A DNA stretch of 40,853 nt from Candidatus Hydrogenedens sp. (GTDB lineage: Bacteria > Hydrogenedentota > Hydrogenedentia > Hydrogenedentales > Hydrogenedentaceae): NCBI GenBank assembly GCA_049968235.1, contig JBMFRC010000025.1:1-40853 (forward strand). The letters are read 5' to 3'. Position numbers and translations under genes: made by a program. Below, piece by piece: positions 3,958 to 21,664 of the stretch (within the stretch, counting starts at the first letter, position 1; every line of letters starts with the position of its first letter). Below the pieces are notes generated by a model. That model saw only the letters and a list, made by a program, of their open reading frames with translations. It made no database searches and was not told where the DNA came from.

Positions 3958-3979
3958 AGATACATAAAGGAAAGAATAT

Positions 3980-4729: not shown

Positions 4730-4776
4730 TATCCAAATCTATCTTTATGAAATATCTCATATAAAGAAAATTTTTT

Positions 4777-6081: not shown

Positions 6082-6148
6082 CTCCATCTTTTTTTAATAT
6101 ATACTCTAATTCATATTGTTTAATTTATAAAATTTGGAGAAAAATAAT

Positions 6149-7132: not shown

Positions 7133-7141
7133 ATAAATTAA

Positions 7142-9199
7142 ATGAACGGGATAAAAGTATATATATTTATTTTATGTTCCAGTTGTTTATTATTCCGTAT
7201 TGATGCTCAGAATTTAGAGGAAGAAATATTTGAAAATTTCAAAAAAGGTGTTTTTACTCAAGAAAAGGGAGATTTTAAATCAGCATTAAGTTATTTTGAA
7301 AGTATAAAAGACAATGAGTCATATATTTTCCCTTTTACTCAATTACGGATTGCCCAGTGTAAAGATGCCCTGAATCAAACAGAAGAAGGAATACATATTC
7401 TTGAGGAACTCATATCTAAGAATGAAAAAGAATCCGCATGGAGTTTGCCTGTTAACTATCACCTTGCCAGATACTATGAAAAGCAAGGCAATGATAAATT
7501 AGCATGTGCATACTATAACAAAATATATCCCCCATCATTTTTACCATGGTGGTTAGCGGCATATTTAACAGATTGTGGAATATTTTTAGTAAACACACGG
7601 GAATTTCAAAAAGTAGGTGCTGATTGCCTGCGAAAGGTAGTGAATTATGGAGGATATAATCCCTACCGGAAAAATGCTCTTTTAAGTTTATGCCTTTCAT
7701 CAGAGGATGAAGACAAAATCTTTGCAATTCGCTTTTTACTCAAAAGCGGTTATCTTTCAGAAGCATGGTTTATTCTATATAACAATGTAACATCTGAGTT
7801 TCTTACTTATGTAGGTCCTTCAAATGCGATTGAGAAATGGAAAATATTTGAAGATGCGGGGAAGGGTTTTATTTCACAGGTAAAACAAAACAGGCAAATA
7901 GAATATGTCTCCTTGCTTTATGAATATGCATTGCGATGTGCTATTTCATCTGCGAAATATCATATAGCGGATACTTTGTTTGATTTAATGAATAATGATT
8001 TCCCTTTAAATTTTGACGCAGGTGAATATTTATATTGGGCAGGACAAAAAGCAGAGAAAAACAAAAGCGAGGAACATGTAATTTCATACTACAACCTTTT
8101 GTTAAACCGTTTTCCTCAACATAAAAGGGTTCCGGATGTTTTGTTCCTATTAGGTTTCTGGTTCTATAACAAAGGTGACTGGAAAAAGGCACAGAAATAT
8201 TTTGAAACGATAGAAAAAAACTACCCCCAGTCTTCTTATTATTCCCGAACTATATATTTATTATCATCTATATTTGAAAGAAAAGGGGAGAAAGTAAAAG
8301 CAAAAGCATATTATCAAAAAGCAATACAGGGAAACATTGGAGATTATTATGTTCATAGTTCTGCAGAAAAATTGATAAAAGGGTTTAATAGTAGTGAAGA
8401 AAAAATGAAAATAGTCCCATTAAAACACCTCCCTGTATCTGTGCTTGTGAAAAATGCACTGTTATCGATGGATGATAATGAAATTAAGGAACAAATTAAA
8501 ACAGATACAGAATTAAAATGGTTATTCTATTTTAGCCAATTGGGAACGGAAGAAAAAGAATGGATAGCGTATTATATCTGCAATCAAATTCAAACCGGGA
8601 AACGAGATGAAAAAGTTCTGGTATTATTAGCCCATGCAGGTTCTTCTCAGGTCGTCTGGGATTATATATATTCCATTCGTCCTCAGGGATTTACAGATAT
8701 TCCGGAGGAAAATAAAAACCAGATTTTATTTCCACTTCCTTACTATAAATCTGTTATTCAATGGGCAAAAACAATGGCTGTTGACCCCTATTTGATATGG
8801 TCTATCATGAAGCAGGAAAGTTCCTATCGTACATCAGTAATATCCACTTCAAATGCAAAAGGACTTTTACAACTTATTCCCACCACATCAGAATGGGTTA
8901 TAAAAAAGGAGAACCAGTTAAAAGAGATAGACCCGTTGCTATGGAAATATCCAGACTATAACATCGCATTGGGAACCACATACTTTCGATATCTGCTGAA
9001 CCGATTTAATGGAAATATGATATATGCAATAGCTGGGTATAATGCGGGTCCTGGCAGAGTAGACCAATGGAAGAAAAACATGAAAAACAATGACATGGAA
9101 GCATTTATTGAAAATATCCCATTTACAGAAACACGCAATTATGTGAAAAAAGTTTTAGGCAATTATGCAGGCTATCATTCTATTTACAAAGGCTTTTAG
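7142..9199 (+). CDS. Secreted lytic murein transglycosylase (Slt domain) with N-terminal TPR/superhelical region
   Basis: Signal peptide. TPR-like repeats. C-terminal SIMKQESSYR...AKGLLQLIP...AGYNAGPGRV contains the catalytic Glu and family-1 lytic-transglycosylase motifs. Confidence 0.85.
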   Translation: MNGIKVYIFILCSSCLLFRIDAQNLEEEIFENFKKGVFTQEKGDFKSALSYFESIKDNESYIFPFTQLRIAQCKDALNQTEEGIHILEELISKNEKESAWSLPVNYHLARYYEKQGNDKLACAYYNKIYPPSFLPWWLAAYLTDCGIFLVNTREFQKVGADCLRKVVNYGGYNPYRKNALLSLCLSSEDEDKIFAIRFLLKSGYLSEAWFILYNNVTSEFLTYVGPSNAIEKWKIFEDAGKGFISQVKQNRQIEYVSLLYEYALRCAISSAKYHIADTLFDLMNNDFPLNFDAGEYLYWAGQKAEKNKSEEHVISYYNLLLNRFPQHKRVPDVLFLLGFWFYNKGDWKKAQKYFETIEKNYPQSSYYSRTIYLLSSIFERKGEKVKAKAYYQKAIQGNIGDYYVHSSAEKLIKGFNSSEEKMKIVPLKHLPVSVLVKNALLSMDDNEIKEQIKTDTELKWLFYFSQLGTEEKEWIAYYICNQIQTGKRDEKVLVLLAHAGSSQVVWDYIYSIRPQGFTDIPEENKNQILFPLPYYKSVIQWAKTMAVDPYLIWSIMKQESSYRTSVISTSNAKGLLQLIPTTSEWVIKKENQLKEIDPLLWKYPDYNIALGTTYFRYLLNRFNGNMIYAIAGYNAGPGRVDQWKKNMKNNDMEAFIENIPFTETRNYVKKVLGNYAGYHSIYKGF

Positions 9200-9312
9200 T
9201 TTTTTGCAACCATGAGAATTTATTTTTTCTATGTATTTATGCTACAATATGGATTGTTTCAACAAATCTCCTATCGTTCAAGATTAAAAACCTTTTTTTG
9301 GAGGAAAAATTT

Positions 9313-10413
9313 ATGCGTATGGTTCAAGTTCTTTTTATTTCAGCCATGTTATTGGTTGGTGGCTATTCCGCAATGGCTCAGGATGTTGCTGAAGGACAGT
9401 GGATAAACCTGTTCGATGGCGAATCTCTTTTCGGCTGGGTTCAGTTCGGTGATGTTGACTGGAGTGTTCAAAACGGTGTTCTTACTGCAACAAAAGGTAG
9501 TGGTGGATGGCTTGCTACCACCTGTCCCTTTGCTAATTTTGAATTATCAGCAAAGGTAAAGGTATCCGGCGATGGCACTGCTGGACTGGCGATTCGGGTT
9601 CCATTAGAAGGGCATTATTCGGACAATGGTGGAGGTGCCATTATATTGCAAGCCGGTGGCGAATATGATATTTCTGTTAGGGCAGTAGGAAATTCTGTAT
9701 CAGCATCCGTTAATGGCAATCCTGTAGAAGGATTAAATATCACCAATGCCAAAGGACACATCGGTATTCTCTATCATAAATATCATGATAAGAAAAAGCC
9801 TGCTAAAATCGAAGTACAATCCATAAAATTAAAACCTGTTCAACTAAAATCTTTATTCAATGGTGTTGACCTCACAGGCTGGAATATTATTCCCGACCAT
9901 AAATCTGTTTTCTCGGTTGTTGATGGTGCATTGAATATTAAAGATGGCAATGGGCAGATTGAAACGGCGGATGTATATAAAGATTTCCTTTTACAATTAG
10001 ATATTTTCGTAAACGGTAAAGCACTAAACAGTGGTGTATTCTTCCGTGGTCCGAAAGGTGTATTCTGGAAAGGTTATGAGTCTCAGGTCAAGAACGCATG
10101 GCTTAGTAACGACCGCACAAAACCCGTAGACTTTGGAACTGGTGGAATTTATGGTGTTCAAGAATCACGCAAAGTTGTATCAAACGATAAGGAATGGTAT
10201 ACCAAGACTATCGTTTGTGATGGGAATCACATGGCAGTGTGGTTAAACGGCTATTTAGTAAGTGATTTATATGATACTCGCCCTGTTCATCCTGAAGGAG
10301 ATGGTAAAAATGGTTATGTCCCATCCGCAGGAACCATACATTTACAAGGACACGACCCGACAACTGATTTGTCATTCAAAAACATAAATATACAGGTATA
10401 TCCTGAGAAATAA
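9313..10413 (+). CDS. Secreted tandem DUF1080 (PF06439, 3-keto-disaccharide-hydrolase-like) beta-sandwich protein
   Basis: Signal peptide ending AMAQ. Two repeated modules matching the DUF1080 pattern: WINLFDGESLFGW...GDVDWSVQNGVL, and SLFNGVDLTGWNIIPDHKSVFSVVDGAL...GHDPTTDLSFKNINIQ. GGAGG Shine-Dalgarno precedes ATG 9313; the ORF track extends to TTG 9298. Confidence 0.7.
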   Translation: MRMVQVLFISAMLLVGGYSAMAQDVAEGQWINLFDGESLFGWVQFGDVDWSVQNGVLTATKGSGGWLATTCPFANFELSAKVKVSGDGTAGLAIRVPLEGHYSDNGGGAIILQAGGEYDISVRAVGNSVSASVNGNPVEGLNITNAKGHIGILYHKYHDKKKPAKIEVQSIKLKPVQLKSLFNGVDLTGWNIIPDHKSVFSVVDGALNIKDGNGQIETADVYKDFLLQLDIFVNGKALNSGVFFRGPKGVFWKGYESQVKNAWLSNDRTKPVDFGTGGIYGVQESRKVVSNDKEWYTKTIVCDGNHMAVWLNGYLVSDLYDTRPVHPEGDGKNGYVPSAGTIHLQGHDPTTDLSFKNINIQVYPEK

Positions 10414-10440
10414 GAAATATTTGTTATTAAACATTCCTGA

Positions 10441-10478
10441 GAAGGAGCGGATAGTTATTCGCTCCTTCTTATTTTTTT
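10441..10478 (+). terminator. Rho-independent terminator after the DUF1080 gene
   Basis: Stem GAAGGAGCG/CGCTCCTTC with a 10-nt loop, followed by TTATTTTTTT. Confidence 0.65.
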
Positions 10479-10672
10479 AGGGGATTATTTGTACTACTTG
10501 CGTCTAACAAAGTAGTAGAAACATTTTCCCTTTTATACTCTTTTAATCTATTCACACCCATGCGATACCCTTTATATACAGGCTTCTCTTTCTACATTTT
10601 TTGCAAAATGAATAACCAAAAAGATAACCTAATAAAAAGATGAAATTAAAAATTTTTTCAAGGAGATTGACA

Positions 10673-12115
10673 ATGGATACGAGGGCAACCCGTTATCAAA
10701 ATTGTTTAAAGCGATATGTTACCGCATTACGGAATGAAAAACCTGATTGTGTCCCTATTCGCCCATTTGTAGCGGAGTTCACTGCCCATTATTGCGGATT
10801 TACCTGCCAACAGGTAACCCATGATTATCGAATTGCTTTTGATGCGGTTTGTCAAACAGTGCAAGATTTTGATTGGGATGCAGTCGTTCCGAATATGGTA
10901 TATGTATGGACGGGCTTGGCTCAATCTTTAGGCTTAAAATACTACGGAATTCCCGGGATTGAACTCGACCCAAATACAGGTTTTCAATACAAAGAACCGC
11001 CTGAAGACCAGGCGTTTATGAAAGAAGATGAATATGACGCATTAATTGCTGACCCAACCGGTTTTTTATACGAAAAATGGCTCCCTCGGGTATCGACGGA
11101 AGTAGTTGAACCGGGCAAGCCTGCAAAAGTAAGGACTTATCAAGCATTGGTAAAAACATCTATGGCAATGTATGACTACTTTTATGCATTCGGTCCTCAA
11201 TTTGAACGACTTAAAACCGAATGTGGAACCGCATCAGCCATTGCAGGGATTTTTAAAGCACCGTTAGATATTATTGCAGATAAATTGCGTGGTTATATCG
11301 GTTTAACGATGGATTTGTTAATTCAACCGGATAAAGTGCTAAAGGCATGTGAAGCCTTGATGCCACATCTATATCATGTGGCAAAAACTACGGCTGACCC
11401 TAATAAATTAGTTCCTATTGGTTTCTGGATGCATCGCGGTTGCACTCCATTTGTAACCCGGGAACAATTCCATAAATTTTACTGGTCCACATTGAAACCT
11501 ATTATTGAGGAACTCTGGTATGATAAACATCAGGTTCTATTCTATGCGGAAGGAAATTGGGATGAACACTTAGAATCTTTTGCAGAACTTCCCGAAAAAA
11601 GTATTGTGTTCCACATTGACCGTAGTTCTCCGGAAAAAGCAAAAGAGATATTAAGTGAAAAATTTTGTCTTAGCGGTGGTTTACCCAATGCACTTCTTGC
11701 TGTGGGAACACCTAAAGAAGTGCGTGAACATTGTAAAAAATTGATAAAACTTTTAGCACAAGATGGCGGATATATTATGGACGCCAGTGCTATTATACAA
11801 AATGATGCAAAGGTTGAGAATATTCAGGCTATGACAGAGGCAACCCGAGAATATGGAATATACAACGTACCAGCGTGGTCAGGAATTGATAAGATTTTAG
11901 ATAGTGAAATTGATAATTCAACACACGATGTCATACATAGACAAAAACCCTCATGGTTAACGGGCTATCCCCCTGCTGGTGTGTGTTTGCCCTGGCAAGA
12001 AAAACGGAAAGAAATACCCCAAATCAAGGGAGATGAATTATTAGTTGAACAAATCTGGAACGGAATCGAGGCACATGGCTATACCTTTATCTGGCAAATG
12101 TTACTTTCCTTTTAG
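10673..12115 (+). CDS. Uroporphyrinogen-decarboxylase (URO-D) family protein, long non-HemE-type paralogue
   Basis: N-terminal KRYVTALRNEKPDCVPIRPF and overall TIM-barrel URO-D/MtaA-like organisation. AAGGAG Shine-Dalgarno precedes ATG 10673; ATG 10640 is an alternative start. No heme-pathway context, so probably not HemE. Confidence 0.55.
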   Translation: MDTRATRYQNCLKRYVTALRNEKPDCVPIRPFVAEFTAHYCGFTCQQVTHDYRIAFDAVCQTVQDFDWDAVVPNMVYVWTGLAQSLGLKYYGIPGIELDPNTGFQYKEPPEDQAFMKEDEYDALIADPTGFLYEKWLPRVSTEVVEPGKPAKVRTYQALVKTSMAMYDYFYAFGPQFERLKTECGTASAIAGIFKAPLDIIADKLRGYIGLTMDLLIQPDKVLKACEALMPHLYHVAKTTADPNKLVPIGFWMHRGCTPFVTREQFHKFYWSTLKPIIEELWYDKHQVLFYAEGNWDEHLESFAELPEKSIVFHIDRSSPEKAKEILSEKFCLSGGLPNALLAVGTPKEVREHCKKLIKLLAQDGGYIMDASAIIQNDAKVENIQAMTEATREYGIYNVPAWSGIDKILDSEIDNSTHDVIHRQKPSWLTGYPPAGVCLPWQEKRKEIPQIKGDELLVEQIWNGIEAHGYTFIWQMLLSF

Positions 12116-12122
12116 TCTTAGG

Positions 12123-13322
12123 GAAGATTAAATGTTTAAATTTCTTCGACTCTTTATTGTCTGGGCGATTGTATTTATCCTGATATTTTCAGTTTTGGAG
12201 TTAGGTTCTATTTTTTACATCCATTATTTTTTAGATGAAGAAGAATTCGGACATTATGCATCGGTCAAACAAATTGTCAATCGGATGCGAAAAAAATAGG
12301 GATTATTTTAAGATTACATTCCATTCCTATGTAGGGTATATGCCTACACCTAATTATAAGAAAGGGGAGAATAAACATAACTCATATGGATTTCGTGGAG
12401 AAGAATTGAGTAATAAAAAAGAGGGGGAAATCTGGATAGCCTGTTTGGGGGAATCTACAACATACGACTCTGACCTAGAATGCTGGGAGAAAGCCTATCC
12501 TGCCCAATTAGAAAGATACCTGAACGAACAGGGAATCAAAGCGAAAGTTATCAATACGGGAGTGGACGGCTGGACCAGTTTTGAAATTTTGATTGATTTC
12601 AATCTCCGTGTTTCACGCTTACCTATTGATATAATAATTTACTATGGCGGATTCAATGATATAATATTTACCCGGTTGGTGTATCCAATCCCTGAGAAAC
12701 CATTAGAGAGAGATATTACACATGCTCGTTGGGGAATAGACGGTATGTTTCTTTATCCCTTCTGGGAAAATAGTTCTATACTACGAATTATACTTGTGAA
12801 ATTTAGACATATTATTCCGCATTTTGACCTATTTTTATGCATTTAAGCACGGAAAATCATTTTACAGAGTTCGTTGTCCAATTATTGAACCATTCCTACC
12901 CCAAAGGTATTTTTAAGGATACTCCAGTAGAAAAAATGTTGTTAAACAATCCTCCAATATGGTTTGAACAAAACTTAACTAATCTTGTTTTACTTGCTAA
13001 ATCCAAATCGATAATTCCTGTTTTAACTACTTATGCTTTAAACAAATCCGGACATAATAATCATTTCATAGCAAGGGATGCCGAATCTATTTCTATTATT
13101 AATCAAATTATGACATCTGCCATAAAAGAAATGAATGCCGTCATAGAAAAAACCGCAACAGAACAACATATCCCTTTTATAGATATAGATAATTCCTATC
13201 CTGTTGACGGAAATCTATTTACTGATTTGATTCACAATAATGAGCAAGGAGCCAGAGTAAAAGCAGAGTTAATTGGTAAGTTTTTGATTGATTCAGGACT
13301 TGTAAAATTTAAATACCATTAA
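12123..13322 (+). pseudogene. Membrane-anchored SGNH/GDSL-family hydrolase interrupted by two +/-1 frameshifts (three ORF fragments: 12123-12290, 12235-12846, 12837-13322)
   Basis: Fragment 1 encodes a TM anchor, MFKFLRLFIVWAIVFILIFSVLEL.... Fragment 2 carries SGNH block I (IACLGESTTYDSD) and block III (YYGGFNDI). Fragment 3 carries block V (DLIHNNEQG, a DxxH motif). Frame changes map to an A7 run (12281-12287) and a T5 run (12832-12836). Removing or adding one base restores a continuous ~399-aa reading frame. Confidence 0.6.
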
Positions 13323-13397
13323 TTGAAACAAAAATTATCTTTACCAATAATCAAAAGTAAAAATAAAAAGTATTTATCGATGATATTTTGATATTCC

Positions 13398-13412
13398 CGA
13401 AAAAAAAAAAAA
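13398..13412. repeat. A15 homopolymeric tract in the intergenic region upstream of the second URO-D-like gene
   Basis: 15 consecutive A residues read directly from the sequence. Confidence 0.9.
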
Positions 13413-13518
13413 AACAATAGATGTTGGTACTTCCTTATGCTGAAAAATATCATGATTTAGTGTTGGTAATTTCTGTAATATTTGTAAGAATATAATACGA
13501 AGAAAAGGAGTTGTTTTA

Positions 13519-14637
13519 ATGCTATATGACACATCTTATACAGGCTTGTCTCCTCAGGGTAAAAATATAAAGCGAATGATGTTTTATGACTATCCAAAGT
13601 GGGTCCCTGTGGAGGTCTTTTTTTTACCTGCCTGCTTAAACAAATACAAGACAGATATGAATGACCTAATGGAAAGGCACAGACGATTATTCCCTCAATA
13701 TGATAGAGTTGATAAAAATAGTTCTGTGGAATACAAAGATTTTTATGTTGAAGGTGATGTTACCGATTGTTGGGGATGCATTTGGAAAAATTTACATGGG
13801 GGTATGGTCGGAAAAGTAGTAGGGCATCCGCTGGAAAATTGGGACTATTTTGAAGAATGGAAAAAACATATCCCCAGTCCGGAAACGGATGGTATTTTGG
13901 GACCTAAGGATTGGAATGGTATAGCAAAAGACATTCAAAATAAAAAGGAAGAAGGTATTTTCTCTCCAGATTTCCCACTCCCTCATGGATTCCATTTTAT
14001 GCTTCTCTGGGATTTGCGAGGTTTTGAAAATTTTATGTTAGATATGCTTACAGAAGAACCCCGTCTTATGGAATTAATACATATTATCATGGAGTATAAC
14101 AACTATTCTGTAAGAAGAATATTGGATTTGAAAACACCCTTTTTAGGACTTGCAGAGGATTTGGGAATACAAAATAATTTACCTATTAGTAAAGAATTAT
14201 GGGATAGATATGTAAAACCGGGTTATGAAATAACTGTAGGCGAAGCCAGAAAACGCGGAATCCCTGTTTATTTACATTCTGATGGACATATTTTACCTAT
14301 CATACAGGAACTCATTGATATGGGAGTAACCTTGCTCAATCCACAGTCTCGTGCCAATGGTATTTACCCACTGCGAGAGCAGGTTTTTAGAAAGGTAGCT
14401 ATAAATCTTGACCTTGACCGTCAATTATTCCCTGTTGCAGAAAAATCCGATATACAAAGACATGTCCATGAAATTTTTAATGCCTTTTATCTCCCGGAAG
14501 GAGGTTTAATGTTGAATATTGAAATTAATGAAGATGTTCCACTTGAGATAATGGATTATTTATTCTCAATTGTAGAAGATTATTGTTCACTGCCTAATCC
14601 TGAAGATACGAATTTTTCAAAAATAGGATTGTTTTAA
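13519..14637 (+). CDS. Uroporphyrinogen-decarboxylase (URO-D) family protein, second paralogue
   Basis: C-terminal GIPVYLHSDGHILPIIQELIDMGVTLLNPQ resembles the URO-D/MtaA barrel end. AAAGGAG Shine-Dalgarno lies 7 nt upstream. Confidence 0.5.
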   Translation: MLYDTSYTGLSPQGKNIKRMMFYDYPKWVPVEVFFLPACLNKYKTDMNDLMERHRRLFPQYDRVDKNSSVEYKDFYVEGDVTDCWGCIWKNLHGGMVGKVVGHPLENWDYFEEWKKHIPSPETDGILGPKDWNGIAKDIQNKKEEGIFSPDFPLPHGFHFMLLWDLRGFENFMLDMLTEEPRLMELIHIIMEYNNYSVRRILDLKTPFLGLAEDLGIQNNLPISKELWDRYVKPGYEITVGEARKRGIPVYLHSDGHILPIIQELIDMGVTLLNPQSRANGIYPLREQVFRKVAINLDLDRQLFPVAEKSDIQRHVHEIFNAFYLPEGGLMLNIEINEDVPLEIMDYLFSIVEDYCSLPNPEDTNFSKIGLF

Positions 14638-14746
14638 GGTTATTAAAAGTCTATAATAGCAATAGTGAATTTTTTAACGTACTATTAAAACACTTAACAA
14701 AATGTATTTGTTTTGATAGCGAATTTCAAATTAAAGGATTATAAAA

Positions 14747-15322
14747 ATGATTTACTACCAACAAATAGCAAAGCAATGGGACCGATTAAATGCTCTTTCC
14801 CCAGAAGATTCGAAAATGCTAAACAACTCAATTGAAGATGGGGTTTTTGAGGGTTTTAATCAATTTTCCACACAATTAATGAATAATCTAACGAGAGACT
14901 TTCCAATTGTGAACAATTTAGCATATCACGATATAAAACAAATAAAATCAGGTTTCTCAAACGCGGTATTTTCAGGATATCTTATTTATGTTGCGTATCA
15001 AATAATTTCAAATATAAAAAGACCTTTGTTTCAACAGGGTTTTAAATATGACCCCACAGTAATGAATGAATACAATGATATAATTGTTCCTGAACGACCT
15101 AATGTTAAAAGCGAAAGATTTTTCAGTATACTTGATGAACATCCCGCTATCGAACTCCTTTTTGAAAAGGTAACATCTATAGAATTAAATATCTTAAGAA
15201 AAAATAATCCGGGTATAGGTGATTTGTCCGCTAATATAGGGTTTATGATAAAAGACCTTATGGCTCGTGGAGTATTTATGGGCTATGGGCTTGGTTTCGC
15301 AGAAAATTGTCTAAGAGGATAG
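14747..15322 (+). CDS. Hypothetical protein (191 aa), no family recognised; low-GC codon usage
   Basis: Clean ORF with its own start, flanked by AT-rich spacers. No motif recognised. Confidence 0.45.
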   Translation: MIYYQQIAKQWDRLNALSPEDSKMLNNSIEDGVFEGFNQFSTQLMNNLTRDFPIVNNLAYHDIKQIKSGFSNAVFSGYLIYVAYQIISNIKRPLFQQGFKYDPTVMNEYNDIIVPERPNVKSERFFSILDEHPAIELLFEKVTSIELNILRKNNPGIGDLSANIGFMIKDLMARGVFMGYGLGFAENCLRG

Positions 15323-15534
15323 AGTTAAAATTCTTCAATATCCTTACATGTAATATAATAAATAAGCAATAAGTATAATTTTGATGATGTATTTTTTTTT
15401 TTAAATATTACAAATATCACAAAAACTCAGATAATAGATATAAAACAATAGAATTAAATATACTTATGTTTCTAAAGATGTTATTTACAATTTAATCAGA
15501 TAATAAAAATTATCGAAAAACAAATCTGGGCATT

Positions 15535-16473
15535 ATGAAGGGTATGAAAATGAAAAATGGTTCTTTATTTCTCTGTATATTATTTTTAATATTATTTCCT
15601 ATGATTGTTTCGGCGGAAAGTATTAATCTCACAATAACCGATGAATTTCTATCTTTTTTGTGTGGTCCTCGAAAAATTGCAGATTATCGCTATACAAAAG
15701 TGCCTTTTAAACCATATCTCAAAAGATTTTTTACCCCATCTGGAATACAAATTCTGGAAGATGCTCCTCATGACCACTTACATCATCATGGGTTAATGTT
15801 CGCTGTCGCAGTTAATGATATAAATTACTGGGAGGAAATCGAAAAAAGTGGACATCAAATCCATCAGCAATTCTCCAATATCAATGTAAATGAAAAATTA
15901 CCAATTCCAATGAGTTCTTTTGTCGAAGAATTAGTATGGAAAAGTCCCGGAAATGATGCTCCGCAATTAACAGAGATACGAAAAATTTCCTCCGGTTATT
16001 GGGAACAAGAAAATGCAAATATAATTCTCTGGGAAACACAATTAAAGAATCCATCAGACACAAATACTGCAAAACTTACAGGGCATCATTATTTTGGATT
16101 GGGGATAAGGCTTTTAACAACACCATTAGAAAATGTGGAAATAATATCTCCTGCTGAGGATAATCTTGAGAACGTACGGGGCGATGAATACCTGCGCAGT
16201 ACGCCGTGGTGTGCCGTTGTAGTTAAGAATGAAACGGGTACTTTTACCTTATTGATAATTGATTCGCCGGAGAGTGTGCGTTATCCGGCTCGTTGGTTTA
16301 CCATGCGAATGCCTTTCGTGTATATTTCTGCAACCCGAAATTTATGGAAAGAACCACTTGAAATATCACCCGGAGATAGAGTTTTGTGTAAATGTATATT
16401 TGTTTTATGGGATGGTGAAAAGACAAAAGAGGCACTGGGGAAGGCTGTAGAAGAAATCAATAGTAAAAAATAA
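15535..16473 (+). CDS. Secreted PmoA-like (DUF6807/PF14100-like) protein
   Basis: Signal peptide (LFLCILFLILFPMIVSA). His-rich motif DAPHDHLHHHGLMFAVAVND resembles the DHPHHRGLWF signature of the PmoA-like family that commonly neighbours Gfo/Idh/MocA genes. Assigned from memory of the family, not verified. Confidence 0.55.
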   Translation: MKGMKMKNGSLFLCILFLILFPMIVSAESINLTITDEFLSFLCGPRKIADYRYTKVPFKPYLKRFFTPSGIQILEDAPHDHLHHHGLMFAVAVNDINYWEEIEKSGHQIHQQFSNINVNEKLPIPMSSFVEELVWKSPGNDAPQLTEIRKISSGYWEQENANIILWETQLKNPSDTNTAKLTGHHYFGLGIRLLTTPLENVEIISPAEDNLENVRGDEYLRSTPWCAVVVKNETGTFTLLIIDSPESVRYPARWFTMRMPFVYISATRNLWKEPLEISPGDRVLCKCIFVLWDGEKTKEALGKAVEEINSKK

Positions 16474-16494
16474 ATTTTCATAAGGAGAATACCT

Positions 16495-17775
16495 ATGAAA
16501 CAATCTCAGACAAATCAAAATCAAGGTATAAGTCGTCGAACTTTTATCAAAACTACAACTGCAGGACTTATTGCCACTGCAAGTGTGTCCGCAGTGAAAA
16601 GTGCAACCGCTCAAAATAACCGATTAGGTATTGGTGTAATAGGCTGTGGTGGCAGAGGAAGTTATTTATCTCAGGTAATAAAGCATTTGCAGGATAATGA
16701 TAAAACAGTCCAATTCAAAGCCTTTTGTGATATATATCGCCCCCGATTGAATAAATTAGCGGATATTTACGGGGGAAAGAAGTATATGGATTATCGTGAA
16801 TTACTAAATGACAAAGAGGTAGATGTTGTAATTATTGCCACCCCCGACCACCACCATGCTCGCCAGACAATAGAAGCGGTAAAAGCAGGCAAGCATGTGT
16901 ATTGTGAAAAGCCCATGACACACTGGACGCAATGGGAATTGGCAAAGCAAATGACAGAAACAGTAAGACAGTCCAATTGTGTTTTCCAGATAGGTACACA
17001 AGCCATGTCCGATAGTGTATGGAAACAAATGAAAGAATTGGTAGAACAAGGGAAAATTGGTCAGCCTGTGCATGTAGAATGCGGATATTTTCGTTTAGGG
17101 GATTGGGGTGAAAGAGGTATGCCGATTGATGACCCGAATGCTAAGCCAGGTCCCGATTTAAATTGGGATGCATTTTTAGAAGATGCTCCGAAACGGGATT
17201 TTGATGTAAGTCGCTTTTTCCGCTGGAGAATGTATGCGGACTATGCCGGTGGTATGTCCACAGATTTGTATCCGCATATATTAACGCCTGTTGTTTATAC
17301 TATCGGAGTACATATGCCGAAGATTGTTGTAGGTATCGGTGGAAAATTACGCTATGAAGAAAGGGAAATCCCGGATACTTTTGATATGCTCATTAACTAT
17401 AACGATAAAACGGACTTGGCACTTTTAGGTACTCAGGCAAATGAATATCAGGGGACCGCACTTCGCGGGCAGAATCGTGTTCCCGTTATTCGGGGTTGGG
17501 AAGGCACATTAACGATAAATGAGGAAAACATAGTTTACTGGCCTGCCAATGCTTTGAAAACTCAAAATCCAGAAAAAATACCCATTCAAAAAGGAGAAAA
17601 TTTAACGGATTATATCCGTAGTTTTATAGATTGTTGTATGCATAAGGACAAAAACACATTAAGCCCTATTGATATGGCTTTTGAAGTCCAGACAACATTG
17701 ATTATGGGTATGTTGTCATGGAAAGATAGTAAGATGTATACCTATAAAGATGATACAGGACCCGTAGCCTTATAA
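16495..17775 (+). CDS. Tat-secreted Gfo/Idh/MocA family oxidoreductase (glycoside/sugar dehydrogenase type)
   Basis: Twin-arginine signal SRRTFIKTTTAGLIATASVSA. GIGVIGCGGRG Rossmann motif. EKP catalytic region (YCEKPMT). AAGGAGAA Shine-Dalgarno. Confidence 0.85.
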   Translation: MKQSQTNQNQGISRRTFIKTTTAGLIATASVSAVKSATAQNNRLGIGVIGCGGRGSYLSQVIKHLQDNDKTVQFKAFCDIYRPRLNKLADIYGGKKYMDYRELLNDKEVDVVIIATPDHHHARQTIEAVKAGKHVYCEKPMTHWTQWELAKQMTETVRQSNCVFQIGTQAMSDSVWKQMKELVEQGKIGQPVHVECGYFRLGDWGERGMPIDDPNAKPGPDLNWDAFLEDAPKRDFDVSRFFRWRMYADYAGGMSTDLYPHILTPVVYTIGVHMPKIVVGIGGKLRYEEREIPDTFDMLINYNDKTDLALLGTQANEYQGTALRGQNRVPVIRGWEGTLTINEENIVYWPANALKTQNPEKIPIQKGENLTDYIRSFIDCCMHKDKNTLSPIDMAFEVQTTLIMGMLSWKDSKMYTYKDDTGPVAL

Positions 17776-17803
17776 TAAAACTCGAAATAGAAAGGATAAT
17801 TTT

Positions 17804-18643
17804 ATGGGAAAAATAGGTATCGGAATTAATATGGAATTTGTCCGACATGCAGACAAACCCTTTGAATGGGGTGTAGATAAAGCGGCTGAATTAGGCTATG
17901 AATATGTAGAACCTATGGTGCATTGGGGCAGAGAATTACTCAGCGAAGCAGGTTATTTTCATAGCGTTTCAATGTTAGATGACCCCTATCGAATTAAAAA
18001 GGCATGTGAAAATGCAGGGATTAAATTATCGGGACTTTCTTCTCATTCCCCTCTCTGTAAACCTGAAATTAGTACGGAATACTTGAAGCAGGGGGTTCGA
18101 TTTGCAGAGGAATGTGGTGCTCCTGTTATTAACACTGATGAAGGACCTAAACCTAAATGGACTACTGTGGAAGAAGACCATGTTTTGATGAGATATGTTC
18201 TTATGGAAGTTTGTGCAGTGGCGGAACCTCGTGGAATTTTAATCGGATTAGAACCTCATCAGCAATATAGTAAATCCCCCGAAGGATTAGACCGAATTTA
18301 TTCTCTCGTAAAATCTCCCATTTTAGGTATCAATTTTGACACGGGTAATAGTTTTTTAAGTGGACAGGACCCCATTGCCTGGTTGGAACATGTGAGTGAT
18401 AGATTGGTGCATTTACATGCAAAAGATATAGCCTTGCAACAGGCGGAAGCAGAACGAGGAAAAGTAACCGGAACACCGGTGGGATGTGCTTGCGGGGATG
18501 GAGTTATTGACTGGACAAAAGTTATATCCATTTTAAAAAAATCGCCTCGCAACATTGTAATGAGTGTCGAATGTGGAACAATTGAACAGGCGGAACGCAG
18601 TATAAAATATCTGAAAGAATTATTGAAGAAAATCGAAGATTAA
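17804..18643 (+). CDS. Sugar phosphate isomerase/epimerase (xylose-isomerase-like TIM barrel) family protein
   Basis: Pattern typical of the AP-endonuclease-2/xylose-isomerase-like TIM barrel: GYEYVEP, metal-ligand-like E/H/D residues (LHAKD, GINFDTGN), and length ~280 aa. The start lies 28 nt after the oxidoreductase stop. Confidence 0.75.
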   Translation: MGKIGIGINMEFVRHADKPFEWGVDKAAELGYEYVEPMVHWGRELLSEAGYFHSVSMLDDPYRIKKACENAGIKLSGLSSHSPLCKPEISTEYLKQGVRFAEECGAPVINTDEGPKPKWTTVEEDHVLMRYVLMEVCAVAEPRGILIGLEPHQQYSKSPEGLDRIYSLVKSPILGINFDTGNSFLSGQDPIAWLEHVSDRLVHLHAKDIALQQAEAERGKVTGTPVGCACGDGVIDWTKVISILKKSPRNIVMSVECGTIEQAERSIKYLKELLKKIED

Positions 18644-18660
18644 TTGAGAATATTGTTTTG

Positions 18661-18712
18661 GACCCCGAATAAGGAATTAATAAATCTATTCGGGGTCTAT
18701 TTTTATATTTTT
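18661..18712 (+). terminator. Rho-independent terminator after the three-gene PmoA-like/oxidoreductase/TIM-barrel operon
   Basis: Stem GACCCCGAATA/TATTCGGGGTC with a 15-nt loop, followed by TATTTTTATATTTTT. Confidence 0.65.
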
Positions 18713-18837
18713 GTTTAAATTTTATATCCATAAAAATTATTGAAATATTTTCTGTTATTTATTCATAGAAAATTTTGTTTTTTTTATATGTTAGTAGTAA
18801 GATTGTGAGAAGATAAAAAACTAACAGGAGACTTTTT

Positions 18838-20286
18838 ATGAAACAGAAAATATCGCAAATTTGGTTTTCTTTGGTATTGATATTCTTAACACTACCAGTT
18901 GTCCAAGCACAGGATTCCATTTCAAATGCCCAAAAATCGGATGTAAAACAATCAGTGACAACCCTTCAAGACCAGATGGATGTTGCTGTTACGATATATA
19001 ACAATGACCGTGCACTGGTAAGGGAAAAACGGAAAATAAAATTACCCCGGGGGGAAAGTTATTTAAAATTTATGGATGTGCCGGAGCATATTCTTCCTGA
19101 GACAGTAAGTCTAAAATCCTTAATACAGGCAGGGAGTTTACAAATTCTGGAACAAAATTATGAATATGATTTAATTAGTCCATCCAAATTGATGGAAAAG
19201 TATGTGGGTAAGGAGGTAAAACTGGTAAATAAGAATAAAGATATGGATTTTTATGAAGTTACTGCGAAACTGTTAAGTGTAAACGAATCCCCAGTATTTC
19301 AGGTAGAAAATCAGATTTATTTGGGACATCCGGGAAATGTTGTTTTGCCAGAACTCCCATCAGAATTGATTGCGAAACCTACATTAATATGGATGCTGGA
19401 TAATAAATTAGAAGAACAGGAATTGGAGGCTACCTATTTGACCTCAGGTATTTCATGGAAGGCAGATTATGTACTTGTATATGATGAACCTAAAAATGCA
19501 ATGGATTTAGAAGGCTGGATAACACTTAATAATAACTCCGGTGCTACTTATCAGAACGCAAAATTAAAATTGGTAGCAGGGGAAGTGAATATTGTTCCTG
19601 TCCAGGCACCTGCACCCATGATGGACCGTATGATGGTAGGTGCGGCAAAATCTATGGAAGTTCGAGAGGAATCGTTCGCTGAGTATCACCTCTATACCGT
19701 ACCACGAAGAACAACAATTAAACAAAATCAATCAAAGCAGGTAAGTCTGTTATCTGCCAATGGTGTCAAGGCAAATAAAATTTATGAATATCGTGGAAAT
19801 ACCGCATTCTATAATAGCCAGATGAATCCTATCCGGAACGAGAATATTGATACTTTTTTAATTTTTAAGAATGCAGAAAATAACCAGTTAGGATTACCTT
19901 TGCCGGAGGGGATTATTCGTGTGTATCAAGAAGATAGTGAAGAAATGTTACAATTTGCAGGCGAAGACCGTATTAAACATACACCCAAAGATGAAGAAGT
20001 TCGATTACGATTAGGAAAAGCGTTTGATATAATTGGTGAAAGAACCCAGACAGATTTTCAGAAATTAGGTCCTAATATTGTAGAATGTGAATTTGAAGTT
20101 ACTATAAGAAATCACAAGAAAAATGATATTACGGTAGATATTGTGGAACCGATGATAGGCGACTGGCAAATTGTTAAATCATCTATGGATTATGAAAAGA
20201 AAGATGCTTTTTCCGTAATTTTCCATGTGCCTGTGAAAACCGAAGGTTCCGGAAAAGTGTCTTATCGTGTGCGAATTCGGTTCTAA
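18838..20286 (+). CDS. Secreted DUF4139 family protein (DUF4140 N-terminal region; 'mucoidy inhibitor MuiA'-type conserved hypothetical)
   Basis: Signal peptide. N-terminal VTIYNNDRALVREKRKIKLPRGESYLKFMDVPEHILPETVSL resembles the DUF4140/DUF4139 family architecture. Length ~480 aa. Confidence 0.55.
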   Translation: MKQKISQIWFSLVLIFLTLPVVQAQDSISNAQKSDVKQSVTTLQDQMDVAVTIYNNDRALVREKRKIKLPRGESYLKFMDVPEHILPETVSLKSLIQAGSLQILEQNYEYDLISPSKLMEKYVGKEVKLVNKNKDMDFYEVTAKLLSVNESPVFQVENQIYLGHPGNVVLPELPSELIAKPTLIWMLDNKLEEQELEATYLTSGISWKADYVLVYDEPKNAMDLEGWITLNNNSGATYQNAKLKLVAGEVNIVPVQAPAPMMDRMMVGAAKSMEVREESFAEYHLYTVPRRTTIKQNQSKQVSLLSANGVKANKIYEYRGNTAFYNSQMNPIRNENIDTFLIFKNAENNQLGLPLPEGIIRVYQEDSEEMLQFAGEDRIKHTPKDEEVRLRLGKAFDIIGERTQTDFQKLGPNIVECEFEVTIRNHKKNDITVDIVEPMIGDWQIVKSSMDYEKKDAFSVIFHVPVKTEGSGKVSYRVRIRF

Positions 20287-20329
20287 TTATATTGTTGAAA
20301 CGCAAAATAATATATGATGGAGTAATACT

Positions 20330-21079: not shown

Positions 21080-21082
21080 ATT

Positions 21083-21661
21083 ATGAGTGAAGAATCCTAT
21101 CGTGCTTTTATTGCTATAGAAATTCCTTCCGATGTGAGGGAAATAATCTGGAATAATATCAAGCCTGCTTCGGGAATGCTCAAATCTCTGGTAAAATGGG
21201 TTCCACCTGAAAATATGCATTTAACATTACGATTTTTAGGAGCGATAACACTCAGCATAAGTGATAAATTACGAGAAAATTTGCGACAAATATCAGTCCA
21301 GTTTAATCCTGTAAAATTTAAATTAAGTGTTCCGGGTGTTTTTCCTTCATGGAAAGAGCCAAGAGTTTTATGGGTAGGTTTGGATATTATAGAAGGAGAT
21401 ATAAATCAAATACAGAGTAAAATTGAACAACAGGCGCAAATGGTCGGTTTGCCACAAGAAAAGCAAAAATTCCATCCACATATTACCGTAGGTAGAGTTA
21501 AAACGCCTTCTCCATTTCTATCCAATACATGGAAAAATGTTAAAATACAACAAACCCCCGAATTTATTGTGGATAAAATAACATTATTTAAAAGCACATT
21601 AAATCCGGATGGCGCTTTTTACGAGGTTATAGATACTTTTCAATTCAAAGAAAAAGGATAG
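21083..21661 (+). CDS. thpR: RNA 2',3'-cyclic phosphodiesterase (2H family, LigT/ThpR)
   Basis: Two H-x-T-x motifs (HLTLRFLG and HITVGRV) at the expected spacing. ~190 aa. Confidence 0.8.
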   Translation: MSEESYRAFIAIEIPSDVREIIWNNIKPASGMLKSLVKWVPPENMHLTLRFLGAITLSISDKLRENLRQISVQFNPVKFKLSVPGVFPSWKEPRVLWVGLDIIEGDINQIQSKIEQQAQMVGLPQEKQKFHPHITVGRVKTPSPFLSNTWKNVKIQQTPEFIVDKITLFKSTLNPDGAFYEVIDTFQFKEKG

Positions 21662-21664
21662 AGT

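What the first reader, a model, noticed from the sequence alone, without database searches (positions are those of the whole stretch)
10673..15322. Lower-GC cluster with two URO-D-like paralogues flanking a frameshifted membrane-anchored SGNH esterase and an unknown ORF
Two divergent uroporphyrinogen-decarboxylase-family proteins sit here with no heme-biosynthesis context. This family also includes methylcobamide/methyl-ether methyltransferases (MtaA/MtbA, O-demethylase MT-I). They flank a GDSL/SGNH hydrolase, which typically acts as a carbohydrate O-acetyl esterase, and a 191-aa unknown protein. From about 12.1 to 15.5 kb the sequence looks visibly more AT-rich than the flanks (by eye ~33-35% vs ~40-42%). 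It carries long homopolymers and AT-rich spacers, which suggests a horizontally acquired or fast-evolving segment. Possible role: removal of methyl or acetyl decorations from glycans ahead of the glycosidases and oxidoreductases encoded nearby. No corrinoid protein is present, so a methyltransferase role is unsupported here.
Basis: partly seen in the sequence, partly recalled or inferred. Interest (0 to 1): 0.5.

Follow-up and report, generated by a model that had tools for sequence, protein, structure and literature searches.

The report
Methyltransferase-like gene pair, decaying esterase
In a Hydrogenedentota sugar-catabolism locus, two very different URO-D-fold genes that are probably vitamin-B12-dependent methyl-group transferases rather than heme enzymes flank a broken esterase gene, and the low-GC stretch is native DNA shaped by gene loss, not a foreign insert.

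Summary
URO-D1 is 10673-12115 and URO-D2 is 13519-14637. The membrane-anchored SGNH esterase (12132-13322) has two frameshifts, not one. A conserved 191-aa orphan ORF lies at 14747-15322.

The GC dip is real: 32.2% against 36.5% for the window. It comes from AT-rich spacers and amino-acid composition. GC3 and codon usage are ordinary.

Related Hydrogenedentota genomes keep the same gene order around this spot. One lacks the SGNH gene and another lacks URO-D2 plus orf191. This is differential loss in a native locus, not horizontal acquisition.

Neither URO-D protein is HemE. URO-D1 belongs to a family about 60% identical across bacterial and archaeal phyla. Its only solved relative is CdmB, a substrate:corrinoid methyltransferase (E 5e-47). 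In 7 of 80 genomes, all labelled or grouping as Verrucomicrobiota, its orthologue sits directly behind a corrinoid-protein gene. A RACo corrinoid activator follows in three of these.

The window itself has no corrinoid protein. URO-D2 is a deeply divergent URO-D fold, and Asp and Glu appear to replace the MtaA zinc-binding cysteines. The methyl donor is unknown. The glycan-degrading neighbourhoods suggest a methylated sugar, but that is inference.

The parts
9298..10413 (+). Upstream neighbour: exported 3-keto-disaccharide hydrolase (DUF1080-type). It is part of the conserved syntenic block.
   Evidence: PF06439, E 3.5e-48. Same position in L001, L003 and L005.
10438..10471 (+). Terminator-like hairpin (15-bp stem followed by T7) that separates the upstream gene from URO-D1.
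   Evidence: This is a consensus scan only.
10673..12115 (+). URO-D1, about 480 aa; the mechanical ORF starts at 10640. It is an MT-I-like member of the UroD superfamily (CdmB/MtoB/MtvB side). It carries a conserved C-terminal motif of about 45 aa (PGVCxPWEEK...GD...IW...YIWQxLLSF) that CdmB lacks.
   Evidence: PF01208, E 4e-21. CdmB (9rui) at E 1.6e-35 with the single sequence and 4.8e-47 with the family profile; no HemE or MtaA chain at E<=1. Alignment A2. dN/dS 0.059.
12132..13322 (+). Membrane-anchored SGNH/GDSL esterase gene, read in three frame segments: 12132 to about 12296, 12301-12834 and 12837-13322. It is a pseudogene or carries two homopolymer errors. Catalytic blocks GESTT, GGFND and DLIHN are retained.
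   Evidence: Pfam halves. tblastn of the intact 393-397-aa orthologues of L001 and L003 covers all three pieces. The gene is absent from the closest relatives L005/L006.
12290..12296 (+). Frameshift site 1: one extra base in or next to an A7 run, compared with three intact homologues.
   Evidence: DNA alignment.
12832..12837 (+). Frameshift site 2: one base missing at a T5 run. This restores the original frame.
   Evidence: DNA alignment; the only gap against L001 SGNHb between 12300 and 13300.
13323..13518 (.). AT-rich spacer (22% GC) containing the A15 run at 13400-13414.
13519..14637 (+). URO-D2, 372 aa. It is a deeply divergent URO-D-fold protein with invariant DCWG, LPHG, EDLGxQ, LHSDG, NPQ, DLDRQ and GGL...E motifs. 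No Cys occupies the apparent MtaA zinc-ligand positions (judged by eye).
   Evidence: PF01208, 28.8 bits. No sequence hit in the PDB, even with the family profile. AlphaFold model pLDDT 94.8. Foldseek top hits are M. mazei MtaA-type methyltransferase 4ay8 and HemE structures, all at E about 1e-9 and TM about 0.59. Alignment A1. dN/dS 0.070.
14747..15322 (+). orf191: a conserved all-alpha orphan protein found in Hydrogenedens-like genomes and a few MAGs labelled Myxococcota or Deltaproteobacteria. It is not a conserved partner of the URO-D genes.
15323..15534 (.). AT-rich spacer (18% GC) containing the T11 run at 15392-15402.
15535..18643 (+). Downstream neighbours, probably an operon: DUF6807, a TAT-signal GFO/IDH/MocA oxidoreductase and a xylose-isomerase-like TIM barrel. 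The spacers between them are 21 and 28 bp.
   Evidence: Pfam. Same order in L003 and L005.

Best explanation
The segment is a native, variable spot inside a conserved sugar-catabolic gene block of a Hydrogenedens-like (Hydrogenedentota) genome.

URO-D1 is the substrate-binding methyltransferase (MT-I) of a corrinoid-dependent methyl-transfer system. It would bind a methylated compound and present the methyl group to Co(I) of a corrinoid protein. In this genome that corrinoid protein, its reductive activator and the methyl acceptor enzyme must be encoded elsewhere. This is inferred, not shown.

URO-D2 is a second, very divergent URO-D-fold protein that is repeatedly adjacent to URO-D1 in Hydrogenedentota. 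It is most likely a second methyltransferase of the same system. It could be an MT-I for another donor, or an MT-II-like enzyme whose thiol-activating zinc cysteines have been replaced by Asp and Glu. Its exact role is open.

The methyl donor is unknown. URO-D1 has invariant polar residues where CdmB has hydrophobic ones, and both families recur in glycan-degrading neighbourhoods. A polar donor such as a methylated sugar or sugar derivative is therefore the leading guess.

The SGNH esterase was ancestrally coupled to URO-D1 (16-bp spacing) and is being lost. It carries two frameshifts here and is already deleted in the closest relatives. orf191 is an unrelated orphan gene that happens to lie here.
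For: Shown by tool results:
1. URO-D1 and its family profile hit only CdmB among solved structures (E 1.6e-35 and 4.8e-47, near full length). CdmB is an experimentally characterised substrate:corrinoid methyltransferase of the UroD superfamily (PMC13222342).
2. HemE and MtaA NCBIfam models score 23 and 15 bits against cut-offs of 303 and 400.
3. Neighbour clustering around 80 orthologues (58-85% identical, median 61%) found a 204-229-aa protein in 7 loci, directly upstream of URO-D1 in six. Pfam confirms a representative as B12-binding plus B12-binding_2. A Fer2 + Raco_middle + RACo_C_ter activator lies downstream in 3 loci. MtaA-like URO-D genes with HxC...C motifs lie nearby in L020, L025 and L029, and also in L026, a Hydrogenedentes locus without a corrinoid protein. 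L020 also has a homocysteine S-methyltransferase.
5. True URO-D2 orthologues lie directly after URO-D1 in L005, L006, L007, L015, L016, L044, L061 and L093, and just before it in Kiritimatiellota (L009/L024). They lie within a few genes in L062. More distant URO-D2-like genes lie near URO-D1 in Bathyarchaeia (L070, L074).
6. URO-D2-family genes lie within 6 kb of a corrinoid protein in 3 of 67 metagenome loci.
7. The URO-D2 model is confident and its best structural match is an MtaA-type methyltransferase, tied with HemE.
8. Native origin rests on synteny, codon usage and dN/dS.
9. Recurrent neighbours of the two families are GFO/IDH/MocA (26/80 and 10/67), DUF1080 (16/80), sulfatase (7/80 and 3/67), GH38 (3/80, plus L008) and GH29 (4/67).
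Against: - No corrinoid protein, RACo, tetrahydrofolate- or homocysteine-methyltransferase or cobalamin gene occurs in the 40.8-kb window.
- None appears within 6-10 kb in any Hydrogenedentota locus examined.
- Corrinoid-protein linkage is confined to one phylum and 9% of loci. Characterised MT-I genes usually sit beside their corrinoid protein.
- URO-D1's active-site residues differ from those of CdmB, so a change of chemistry cannot be excluded.
- URO-D2 lacks the zinc-thiolate motif and matches HemE as well as MtaA structurally.
- No experiment exists for either family. Literature searches found none.
Confidence: 0.5

Rival explanations
1. The two URO-D-fold proteins are corrinoid-independent enzymes, such as decarboxylases or metal-dependent transferases or lyases. 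They would act directly on oxidised sugar intermediates of the neighbouring 3-keto-sugar pathway.
For: - There is no corrinoid protein in the window or in any Hydrogenedentota locus.
- 73 of 80 URO-D1 loci and 64 of 67 URO-D2 loci lack a nearby corrinoid protein.
- GFO/IDH/MocA, DUF1080 and xylose-isomerase-like neighbours recur.
- URO-D1 has invariant His, Arg, Cys, Glu and Asp where CdmB is hydrophobic.
- URO-D2 has a His/Asp/Glu set in place of His/Cys/Cys and matches HemE as well as MtaA.
- The UroD superfamily does include corrinoid-independent enzymes: UroD, MetE and epoxyalkane:CoM transferase (PMC10418091).
Against: - URO-D1's only detectable solved relative is a corrinoid MT-I, over nearly its full length.
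- Orthologues at 61-63% identity, with the same invariant residues, lie inside corrinoid protein/RACo operons.
- The HemE model is not matched: URO-D1 scores 23 bits against a cut-off of 303 and URO-D2 gives no hit. No HemE N-terminal motif was seen by eye.
Confidence: 0.22
2. The SGNH frameshifts are homopolymer sequencing or assembly errors. The esterase would then be intact, and the locus would work as in L001 and L003, with an active URO-D1-SGNH operon plus URO-D2.
For: - Both shifts sit at homopolymers (A7 and T5). They are +1 and -1, so the frame is restored.
- No stop codon interrupts the correct local frames, and all catalytic blocks are kept.
- dN/dS against L001 SGNHb is 0.09 and 0.16.
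- A second gene, the alpha/beta-hydrolase at 31332-32245 (-), also appears split near an A6 run.
Against: - 287 runs of 5 or more bases, and 82 runs of 6 or more, lie inside intact ORFs of the same window without any shift.
- All housekeeping genes are intact.
- The closest relatives L005/L006 have lost the gene completely, leaving a 36-bp junction. The gene is therefore dispensable in this lineage.
Confidence: 0.35
3. The low-GC segment is a horizontally acquired island.
For: - It is close to the lowest-GC 3.4-kb stretch of the window (32.2% against 36.5%).
- It holds the longest homopolymers and AT-rich spacers.
- Gene content at this spot varies between relatives.
Against: - GC3 and codon usage are ordinary.
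- No integrase, transposase or other mobility domain appeared among the Pfam hits for the window.
- URO-D2 and orf191 sit at the same position in L005/L006, at 84% nucleotide identity and under strong purifying selection.
- The URO-D1-URO-D2 pair is also adjacent in the more distant L007, L015, L016, L044 and L061.
- The closest URO-D2 and orf191 homologues that carry a source name are from Hydrogenedens.
Confidence: 0.05

Closest known systems
CdmB, and the related MT-I enzymes MtoB, MtvB, OdmB and VdmB: substrate:corrinoid methyltransferases of the UroD superfamily (PMC13222342)
   Same: URO-D1 is homologous over nearly the whole CdmB chain (family profile E 4.8e-47) and has the same TIM-barrel family (PF01208). 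In Verrucomicrobiota its orthologues have the same operon logic: corrinoid protein, RACo activator and a second methyltransferase.
   Different: - There is no corrinoid protein, activator or MT-II in this window.
- URO-D1 has invariant polar residues (H265, R266, C268, E304, H310, H325, N350, D381, Q387) where CdmB has hydrophobic ones. CdmB's cavity is aromatic and metal-free.
- URO-D1 has an extra conserved C-terminal motif of about 45 aa after a variable linker.
- Its neighbourhoods are glycan catabolism, not Wood-Ljungdahl methylotrophy.
MtaA/MtbA-type methylcobamide:CoM methyltransferases (SCMTs; PDB 4ay7/4ay8) and their bacterial homologues, the Mlp proteins (PMC10418091)
   Same: URO-D2's best structural match is the M. 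mazei MtaA-type enzyme (E 1e-9, TM 0.59). Its size is similar (372 aa). The His at the end of the 'LHxxG' strand is kept.
   Different: - Sequence identity is 13%, and there is no sequence-level PDB hit even with a profile.
- The NCBIfam MtaA model is not matched.
- By eye, against the MtaA-like proteins of L020 and L029, the zinc-ligand cysteines (HxC...C) are replaced by Asp255 and probably Glu335.
- The genuine MtaA-like proteins next to URO-D1 in Verrucomicrobiota score only 23-50 bits against the URO-D2 profile.
HemE, uroporphyrinogen III decarboxylase
   Same: Same fold and the same Pfam family.
   Different: - TIGR01464 scores 23 bits against a cut-off of 303 for URO-D1 and gives no hit for URO-D2.
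- By eye, neither N-terminus shows the conserved HemE motif recalled from memory as PxWxMRQAGR; no pattern search was run.
- There are no heme genes nearby.
SGNH/GDSL carbohydrate esterases
   Same: Blocks I (GESTT), III (GGFND) and V (DLIHN) are present. Pfam PF13472 matches both halves.
   Different: - The gene is interrupted by two frameshifts.
- It has an N-terminal membrane anchor and a long helical insertion, giving about 395 aa.
- There is no match to a curated esterase family. The only hit is AxeA1 at 16 bits against a cut-off of 700.

Membership tests
HemE (uroporphyrinogen decarboxylase) | Scores above the curated equivalog model TIGR01464 | tested here: not met
   URO-D1 scores 23.3 bits against a cut-off of 302.95. 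URO-D2 gives no hit.
HemE (uroporphyrinogen decarboxylase) | URO-D TIM-barrel fold | tested here: met
   PF01208 matches both proteins. The URO-D2 model matches HemE structures at E about 1e-9 and TM about 0.6.
HemE (uroporphyrinogen decarboxylase) | Heme or tetrapyrrole biosynthesis gene context | tested here: not met
   No tetrapyrrole gene appears among the Pfam hits of the window ORFs.
Corrinoid-dependent MT-I of the UroD superfamily (CdmB/MtoB/MtvB/OdmB type) | Significant full-length homology to a biochemically characterised MT-I | tested here: met
   For URO-D1: CdmB (9rui) at E 1.6e-35 (sequence) and 4.8e-47 (profile), covering profile positions 4-72 and 91-398. Not met for URO-D2.
Corrinoid-dependent MT-I of the UroD superfamily (CdmB/MtoB/MtvB/OdmB type) | Cognate corrinoid protein (PF02310 + PF02607) encoded nearby | tested here: not met
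   None in the 40.8-kb window. tblastn with 7 corrinoid proteins finds only a response-regulator receiver domain at E about 0.02. Met for orthologues in 7 of 80 genomes.
Corrinoid-dependent MT-I of the UroD superfamily (CdmB/MtoB/MtvB/OdmB type) | Reductive activator (RACo/RamA) and an MT-II in the genome | not testable with these tools
   Absent from the window. The rest of the genome is not available. Present beside orthologues in L025, L028 and L037.
Corrinoid-dependent MT-I of the UroD superfamily (CdmB/MtoB/MtvB/OdmB type) | Methyl transfer from a substrate to Co(I) | not testable with these tools
   This needs biochemistry.
MtaA-type MT-II (methylcobamide:thiol methyltransferase) | Zinc-ligand motif HxC...C | tested here: not met
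   URO-D2 has invariant H253-S-D255 and E335 and no Cys at these positions. The positional equivalence was judged by eye, not by a computed alignment. The MtaA-like proteins of L020 and L029 have LHICG...GCE and LHNCA...GCD.
MtaA-type MT-II (methylcobamide:thiol methyltransferase) | Scores above the curated model NF040654 or NF004889 | tested here: not met
   URO-D2 gives no hit. URO-D1 scores 15.5 and 24.5 bits against cut-offs of 400 and 244.
SGNH hydrolase | Conserved blocks with catalytic Ser, Gly, Asn and Asp-x-x-His | tested here: met
   GESTT, GGFND and DLIHN can be read in the correct local frames.
SGNH hydrolase | Uninterrupted reading frame | tested here: not met
   One +1 and one -1 shift relative to three intact homologues.
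Horizontally acquired genomic island | Deviant codon usage or GC3, mobility genes, and absence from related genomes at this site | tested here: not met
   GC3 and codon distance are within the window's range. No mobility domains were found. Relatives carry the same genes at the same site.

The most novel reading that the evidence does not exclude
URO-D1 (perhaps together with URO-D2) is the catalytic core of a so far undescribed anaerobic demethylase for methylated carbohydrates, acting on sugar methyl ethers or methyl esters. It would pass the methyl group to a corrinoid carrier. This system would be widespread in glycan-degrading Hydrogenedentota, Verrucomicrobiota, Planctomycetota, Kiritimatiellota, Bathyarchaeia and Brockarchaeota. 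It would be the oxygen-independent counterpart of the P450 sugar demethylases of aerobic bacteria.
Probability: 0.15. Interest if true: 0.75.

Novelty: new variant of a known kind. Interest (0 to 1): 0.42.

Why it matters
If URO-D1 is a corrinoid-dependent methyltransferase for a polar, sugar-derived methyl donor, it would name an enzyme for a step with no known anaerobic catalyst. That step is the removal of O-methyl groups from algal, plant and microbial glycans in anoxic sediments, digesters and guts.

The family is large. It has more than 4000 clusters at 90% identity and matches at least 590 stretches in the one-genome-per-species collection. It is unusually conserved, at about 60% identity between bacteria and archaea, and it is entirely uncharacterised. 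One biochemical assignment would therefore annotate thousands of genes.

For this particular window the practical lessons are more modest. 'Uroporphyrinogen decarboxylase family protein' is a misleading name here. The GC dip is not foreign DNA. The esterase should be annotated as a probable pseudogene.

Tried and rejected
- Exact-sequence look-up of URO-D1 found nothing on record.
- BLASTP of URO-D1 against URO-D2 showed no real similarity, so the recent-paralogue idea was dropped.
- The URO-D2 family profile found nothing meaningful in the PDB, only chance hits at E>=0.035.
- The large ABC-ATPase neighbour cluster (11/80 loci) first looked like the cobalt transporter CbiO. Pfam shows only a generic ABC_tran domain and the sizes are heterogeneous, so no cobalt link is claimed.
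- Several high-ranking neighbour clusters were antisense ORF artefacts of high-GC genomes and were ignored.
- The 'U2-like' proteins next to URO-D1 in Verrucomicrobiota are ordinary MtaA-like URO-D proteins, not URO-D2 orthologues.
- The SGNH gene beside the corrinoid protein and URO-D1 in L034 shares only 24% identity over 94 aa with the window type (E 0.006). jackhmmer does not link them, so a cross-phylum SGNH-URO-D1 association is not claimed.
- The afdb50 library was unavailable.
- The promoter scan was at chance level.
- Literature searches for a described function of either family in PVC bacteria or Hydrogenedentota, or for corrinoid-dependent sugar demethylation, found nothing. The Bathyarchaeia MtgB is a different family of about 300 aa.

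Full report
**Anatomy**

All genes of the segment are on the + strand.
- A 3-keto-disaccharide-hydrolase gene (9298-10413) ends in a strong terminator-like hairpin at 10438-10471.
- URO-D1 follows. It ends at 12115.
- Sixteen bases later an SGNH/GDSL gene begins at 12132 with a transmembrane anchor (MFKFLRLFIVWAIVFILIF...) and runs to 13322.
- After a 196-bp spacer of 22% GC that carries an A15 run comes URO-D2 (13519-14637).
- After 109 bp comes orf191 (14747-15322).
- After a 212-bp spacer of 18% GC with a T11 run comes a tight DUF6807 / GFO-IDH-MocA / xylose-isomerase-like TIM-barrel trio (15535-18643).
- The rest of the window holds housekeeping genes (prs, L25, pth, ilvN, folC, PEPCK) and glycan-related genes (GH123, GH42-like, beta-helix, a deacetylase-family protein).
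- No ORF in the window has a B12-binding, RACo, pterin-binding or tetrapyrrole-synthesis domain. tblastn with seven corrinoid proteins and three RACo proteins finds nothing.

**The GC observation**

The dip is real. The stretch 12116-15534 is 32.2% GC against 36.5% for the window. It is close to the lowest-GC stretch of that size; the minimum, 31.8%, starts at 12701.

It does not reflect foreign origin.
- GC3 of SGNH, URO-D2 and orf191 is 0.25-0.34, against a window mean of 0.294 (sd 0.026).
- Their codon-usage distances (0.089-0.134) fall inside the spread of the other genes (0.057-0.144).
- The dip comes from three long spacers of 18-22% GC and from lower GC1/GC2 in two short genes.
- Homopolymer density is not elevated: 3.5 per kb against 3.1 per kb. 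The two longest runs of the window do lie in these spacers.

**Comparative genomics settles the origin**

The named close homologues of URO-D2 and orf191 are from Candidatus Hydrogenedens and Hydrogenedentota MAGs.
- L005 and L006 align with the window at 84-85% nucleotide identity from 2167 to 12128 and from 13492 to 24622. They have URO-D1, URO-D2, orf191 and DUF6807 in the same order. A 36-bp junction replaces the SGNH gene.
- L003 has 78% URO-D1 protein identity and shares the whole block from prs to GH123. It has URO-D1, an intact 396-aa SGNH and then DUF6807 directly, with no URO-D2 or orf191.
- L001, L002 and L013 have URO-D1 followed by two tandem SGNH genes.

The window therefore holds the fullest version of a site where relatives have lost different genes.

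dN/dS against L005 is 0.059 for URO-D1, 0.070 for URO-D2 and 0.060 for orf191. These are functional genes, not a fast-evolving segment.

**The esterase**

tblastn with the intact orthologues covers the whole gene in three frame segments. A DNA alignment with three intact homologues shows one extra base in or next to the A7 run at 12290-12296. It shows one missing base at the T5 run near 12836. The catalytic blocks GESTT, GGFND and DLIHN are all kept.

Both shifts lie at homopolymers and they compensate, so sequencing error is a real possibility. A second accessory gene, the alpha/beta-hydrolase at 31332-32245 (-), also appears split near an A6 run.

Two points argue against error. 287 runs of 5 or more bases inside intact ORFs show no shift. 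The nearest relatives have deleted this gene outright. I put real pseudogenisation at about 0.6.

The N-terminal 55 residues resemble the first tandem copy of L001 (45% against 29%). The rest resembles the second copy (75-78% against 47-72%). This hints at a recombination that collapsed a tandem pair.

**What URO-D1 is**

- It is not HemE. TIGR01464 gives 23 bits against a cut-off of 303.
- Its only solved relative is CdmB of Acetobacterium, at E 1.6e-35 for the sequence and 4.8e-47 for the family profile, over nearly the whole chain. No HemE or MtaA chain reaches E<=1.
- CdmB is the chloromethane:corrinoid methyltransferase of the cdmBCA system. It groups with the O-demethylase MT-I enzymes MtoB, MtvB, OdmB and VdmB in the UroD superfamily (PMC13222342).
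- The URO-D1 family is very large and unusually conserved. More than 4000 clusters at 90% identity were scored.
- Identity is about 60% throughout. Carriers include Hydrogenedentota, Verrucomicrobiota, Kiritimatiellota, Lentisphaerae, Planctomycetota, Armatimonadota, Bacteroidota and Ignavibacteria, Bathyarchaeia and Brockarchaeota.
- It carries a conserved C-terminal motif of about 45 aa after a variable linker. CdmB lacks this.

**The corrinoid link**

I clustered all ORFs within 6 kb of URO-D1 in 80 species genomes.
- In seven loci (L020, L025, L028, L029, L031, L034, L037) a 204-229-aa protein lies upstream of URO-D1, directly upstream in six. Pfam identifies a representative as B12-binding_2 plus B12-binding. 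All seven fall in the Verrucomicrobiota clade of the tree, although L031 is labelled Bifidobacteriaceae.
- In three of these loci a 2Fe-2S/RACo reductive activator follows URO-D1.
- L020, L025 and L029 also encode classical MtaA-like URO-D proteins with LHICG...GCE or LHNCA...GCD motifs.
- L020 has a homocysteine S-methyltransferase between the corrinoid-protein gene and the MtaA-like gene.
- L026, a Hydrogenedentes genome, has an MtaA-like gene about 1.8 kb upstream of URO-D1 but no corrinoid protein.
- These orthologues are 61-63% identical to the window protein. Four of them are in alignment A2 and share its invariant residues.

This is the canonical MT-I / corrinoid protein / MT-II / activator layout described in the literature (PMC10989822; PMC10418091). 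The family-level inference that URO-D1 is a corrinoid-dependent MT-I is therefore reasonably strong.

It remains an inference for this genome. 73 of the 80 loci, and every Hydrogenedentota locus, lack a nearby corrinoid protein.

**Active site and substrate (inferred)**

In the alignment with CdmB, URO-D1's invariant H265, R266, C268, E304, H310, H325, N350, D381 and Q387 face hydrophobic CdmB residues. CdmB's cavity is aromatic, metal-free and built for haloalkanes. URO-D1 therefore probably binds a polar donor, a metal, or both.

Recurrent neighbours:

| Neighbour | Loci (of 80) |
|---|---|
| GFO/IDH/MocA oxidoreductase | 26 |
| DUF1080 / 3-keto-disaccharide hydrolase | 16 |
| Sulfatase | 7 |
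| GH38 alpha-mannosidase | 3 |

GH127 and esterases also occur beside it in L009. This supports a carbohydrate-derived methyl donor but does not identify it.

**What URO-D2 is**

- It passes the Pfam URO-D threshold only narrowly (28.8 bits against 23.9). It hits nothing in NCBIfam and nothing in the PDB by sequence or profile.
- A confident AlphaFold model (pLDDT 94.8) matches an M. mazei MtaA-type methyltransferase and HemE structures equally. All are at E about 1e-9, TM about 0.59 and 11-14% identity. MetE follows.
- Its family (1401 hits) has invariant D83-C84-W85, H156, D214, G216, Q218, H253, D255, G256, N274-P275-Q276, D298, R301, Q302 and E335; E213 is nearly invariant.
- Compared by eye with the MtaA-like proteins of L020 and L029, the zinc ligands HxC...C appear to correspond to H253, D255 and E335. 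Any metal site would then not be the thiolate-activating type.
- True orthologues lie directly after URO-D1 in L005, L006, L007, L015, L016, L044, L061 and L093. In Kiritimatiellota (L009/L024) the URO-D2-family gene lies just upstream of URO-D1. In L062 it lies within a few genes.
- More distant URO-D2-like genes lie near URO-D1 in Bathyarchaeia (L070, L074).
- Across 67 informative metagenome loci the family usually stands apart from URO-D1. Its neighbours there are GFO/IDH/MocA (10), a 359-aa protein with no Pfam hit (9), GH29 fucosidase (4) and sulfatase (3). In three loci it lies in a row with a nucleoside-hydrolase-like gene, that 359-aa protein and a corrinoid protein.

I conclude it is a second methyltransferase-like component. 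Whether it acts as MT-I or MT-II is undetermined.

**orf191**

It is a real gene: dN/dS is 0.06, and 28 homologues of 187-211 aa share 42-92% identity. It has a confident all-alpha model and no informative structural match. Its homologues elsewhere are not near URO-D genes. It is an unrelated orphan.

**Verdict**

The horizontal-transfer reading is wrong.

The thing itself is an uncharacterised, polar-active-site variant of a known enzyme kind, paired with a very divergent relative, beside a decaying esterase. Interest is moderate. The locus is ordinary genome dynamics, but URO-D1 marks a large untested family with a concrete, testable hypothesis.

Noticed in passing
window 31332-32245 (-): An alpha/beta-hydrolase appears split into two overlapping ORFs of 189 and 143 aa. 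The junction region contains an A6 run near 31705. This would be a second frameshifted accessory gene in the window. Only the N-terminal ORF has a clear Pfam hit; the C-terminal ORF has only a weak one (E 0.15).
   Followed up: partly
L020, L025, L028, L029, L031, L034, L037 (Verrucomicrobiota clade; URO-D1 orthologue at about 8001-9440 in most): An operon-like row of a corrinoid protein, the URO-D1 orthologue and a RACo activator, with MtaA-like URO-D genes nearby. In L020 a homocysteine S-methyltransferase (PF02574) lies between the corrinoid-protein gene and the MtaA-like gene. This suggests the methyl group may end up on homocysteine, as in a split, alternative-donor methionine synthase. 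A B12-binding radical-SAM gene lies just upstream in L020.
   Followed up: partly
window 11990-12112 (URO-D1 residues about 447-491): A C-terminal motif, PGVCxPWEEK..GD..IW..YIWQxLLSF, is conserved across the family after a variable linker. CdmB lacks it. Its function is unknown.
   Followed up: partly
window 12132-13322 compared with L001 11495-13866: The window's single SGNH gene looks chimeric relative to the tandem pair in L001. The N-terminus resembles the first copy (45% against 29%). The remainder resembles the second copy (75-78% against 47-72%). This fits a recombinational collapse of a tandem duplication.
   Followed up: partly
window 14747-15322: orf191 belongs to a 28-member orphan family restricted to Hydrogenedens-like genomes and a few MAGs labelled Myxococcota or Deltaproteobacteria. 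It has a confident all-alpha model and no PDB fold match.
   Followed up: yes
window 32367-35198 (-): A 943-aa protein combines a papain-family C1 peptidase domain with PASTA domains (Pfam reports two matched stretches). This is an unusual architecture.
   Followed up: no
window 29152-31326 (+): A 724-aa ORF has no Pfam hit even at E<=1. It lies downstream of the GH123, deacetylase-family and beta-helix genes.
   Followed up: no
L036, L085, L090 (two archaeal MAGs, one labelled Brockarchaeota, and a MAG labelled Anaerolineales) and L008: GH38 alpha-mannosidase genes lie next to URO-D1 orthologues in three loci. One lies directly upstream of a URO-D2-family gene in an 8.6-Mb genome (L008). This is a possible hint toward methylated mannosides.
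   Followed up: partly
L014 (= contig of L003), L016, L039, L044: Several contigs whose gene content is syntenic with Hydrogenedentota, or whose URO-D1 groups with Hydrogenedentota sequences in the tree, are labelled 'uncultured Nitrospirales' or 'Nitrospiraceae' in their records. These are probably automatic mis-classifications.
   Followed up: no
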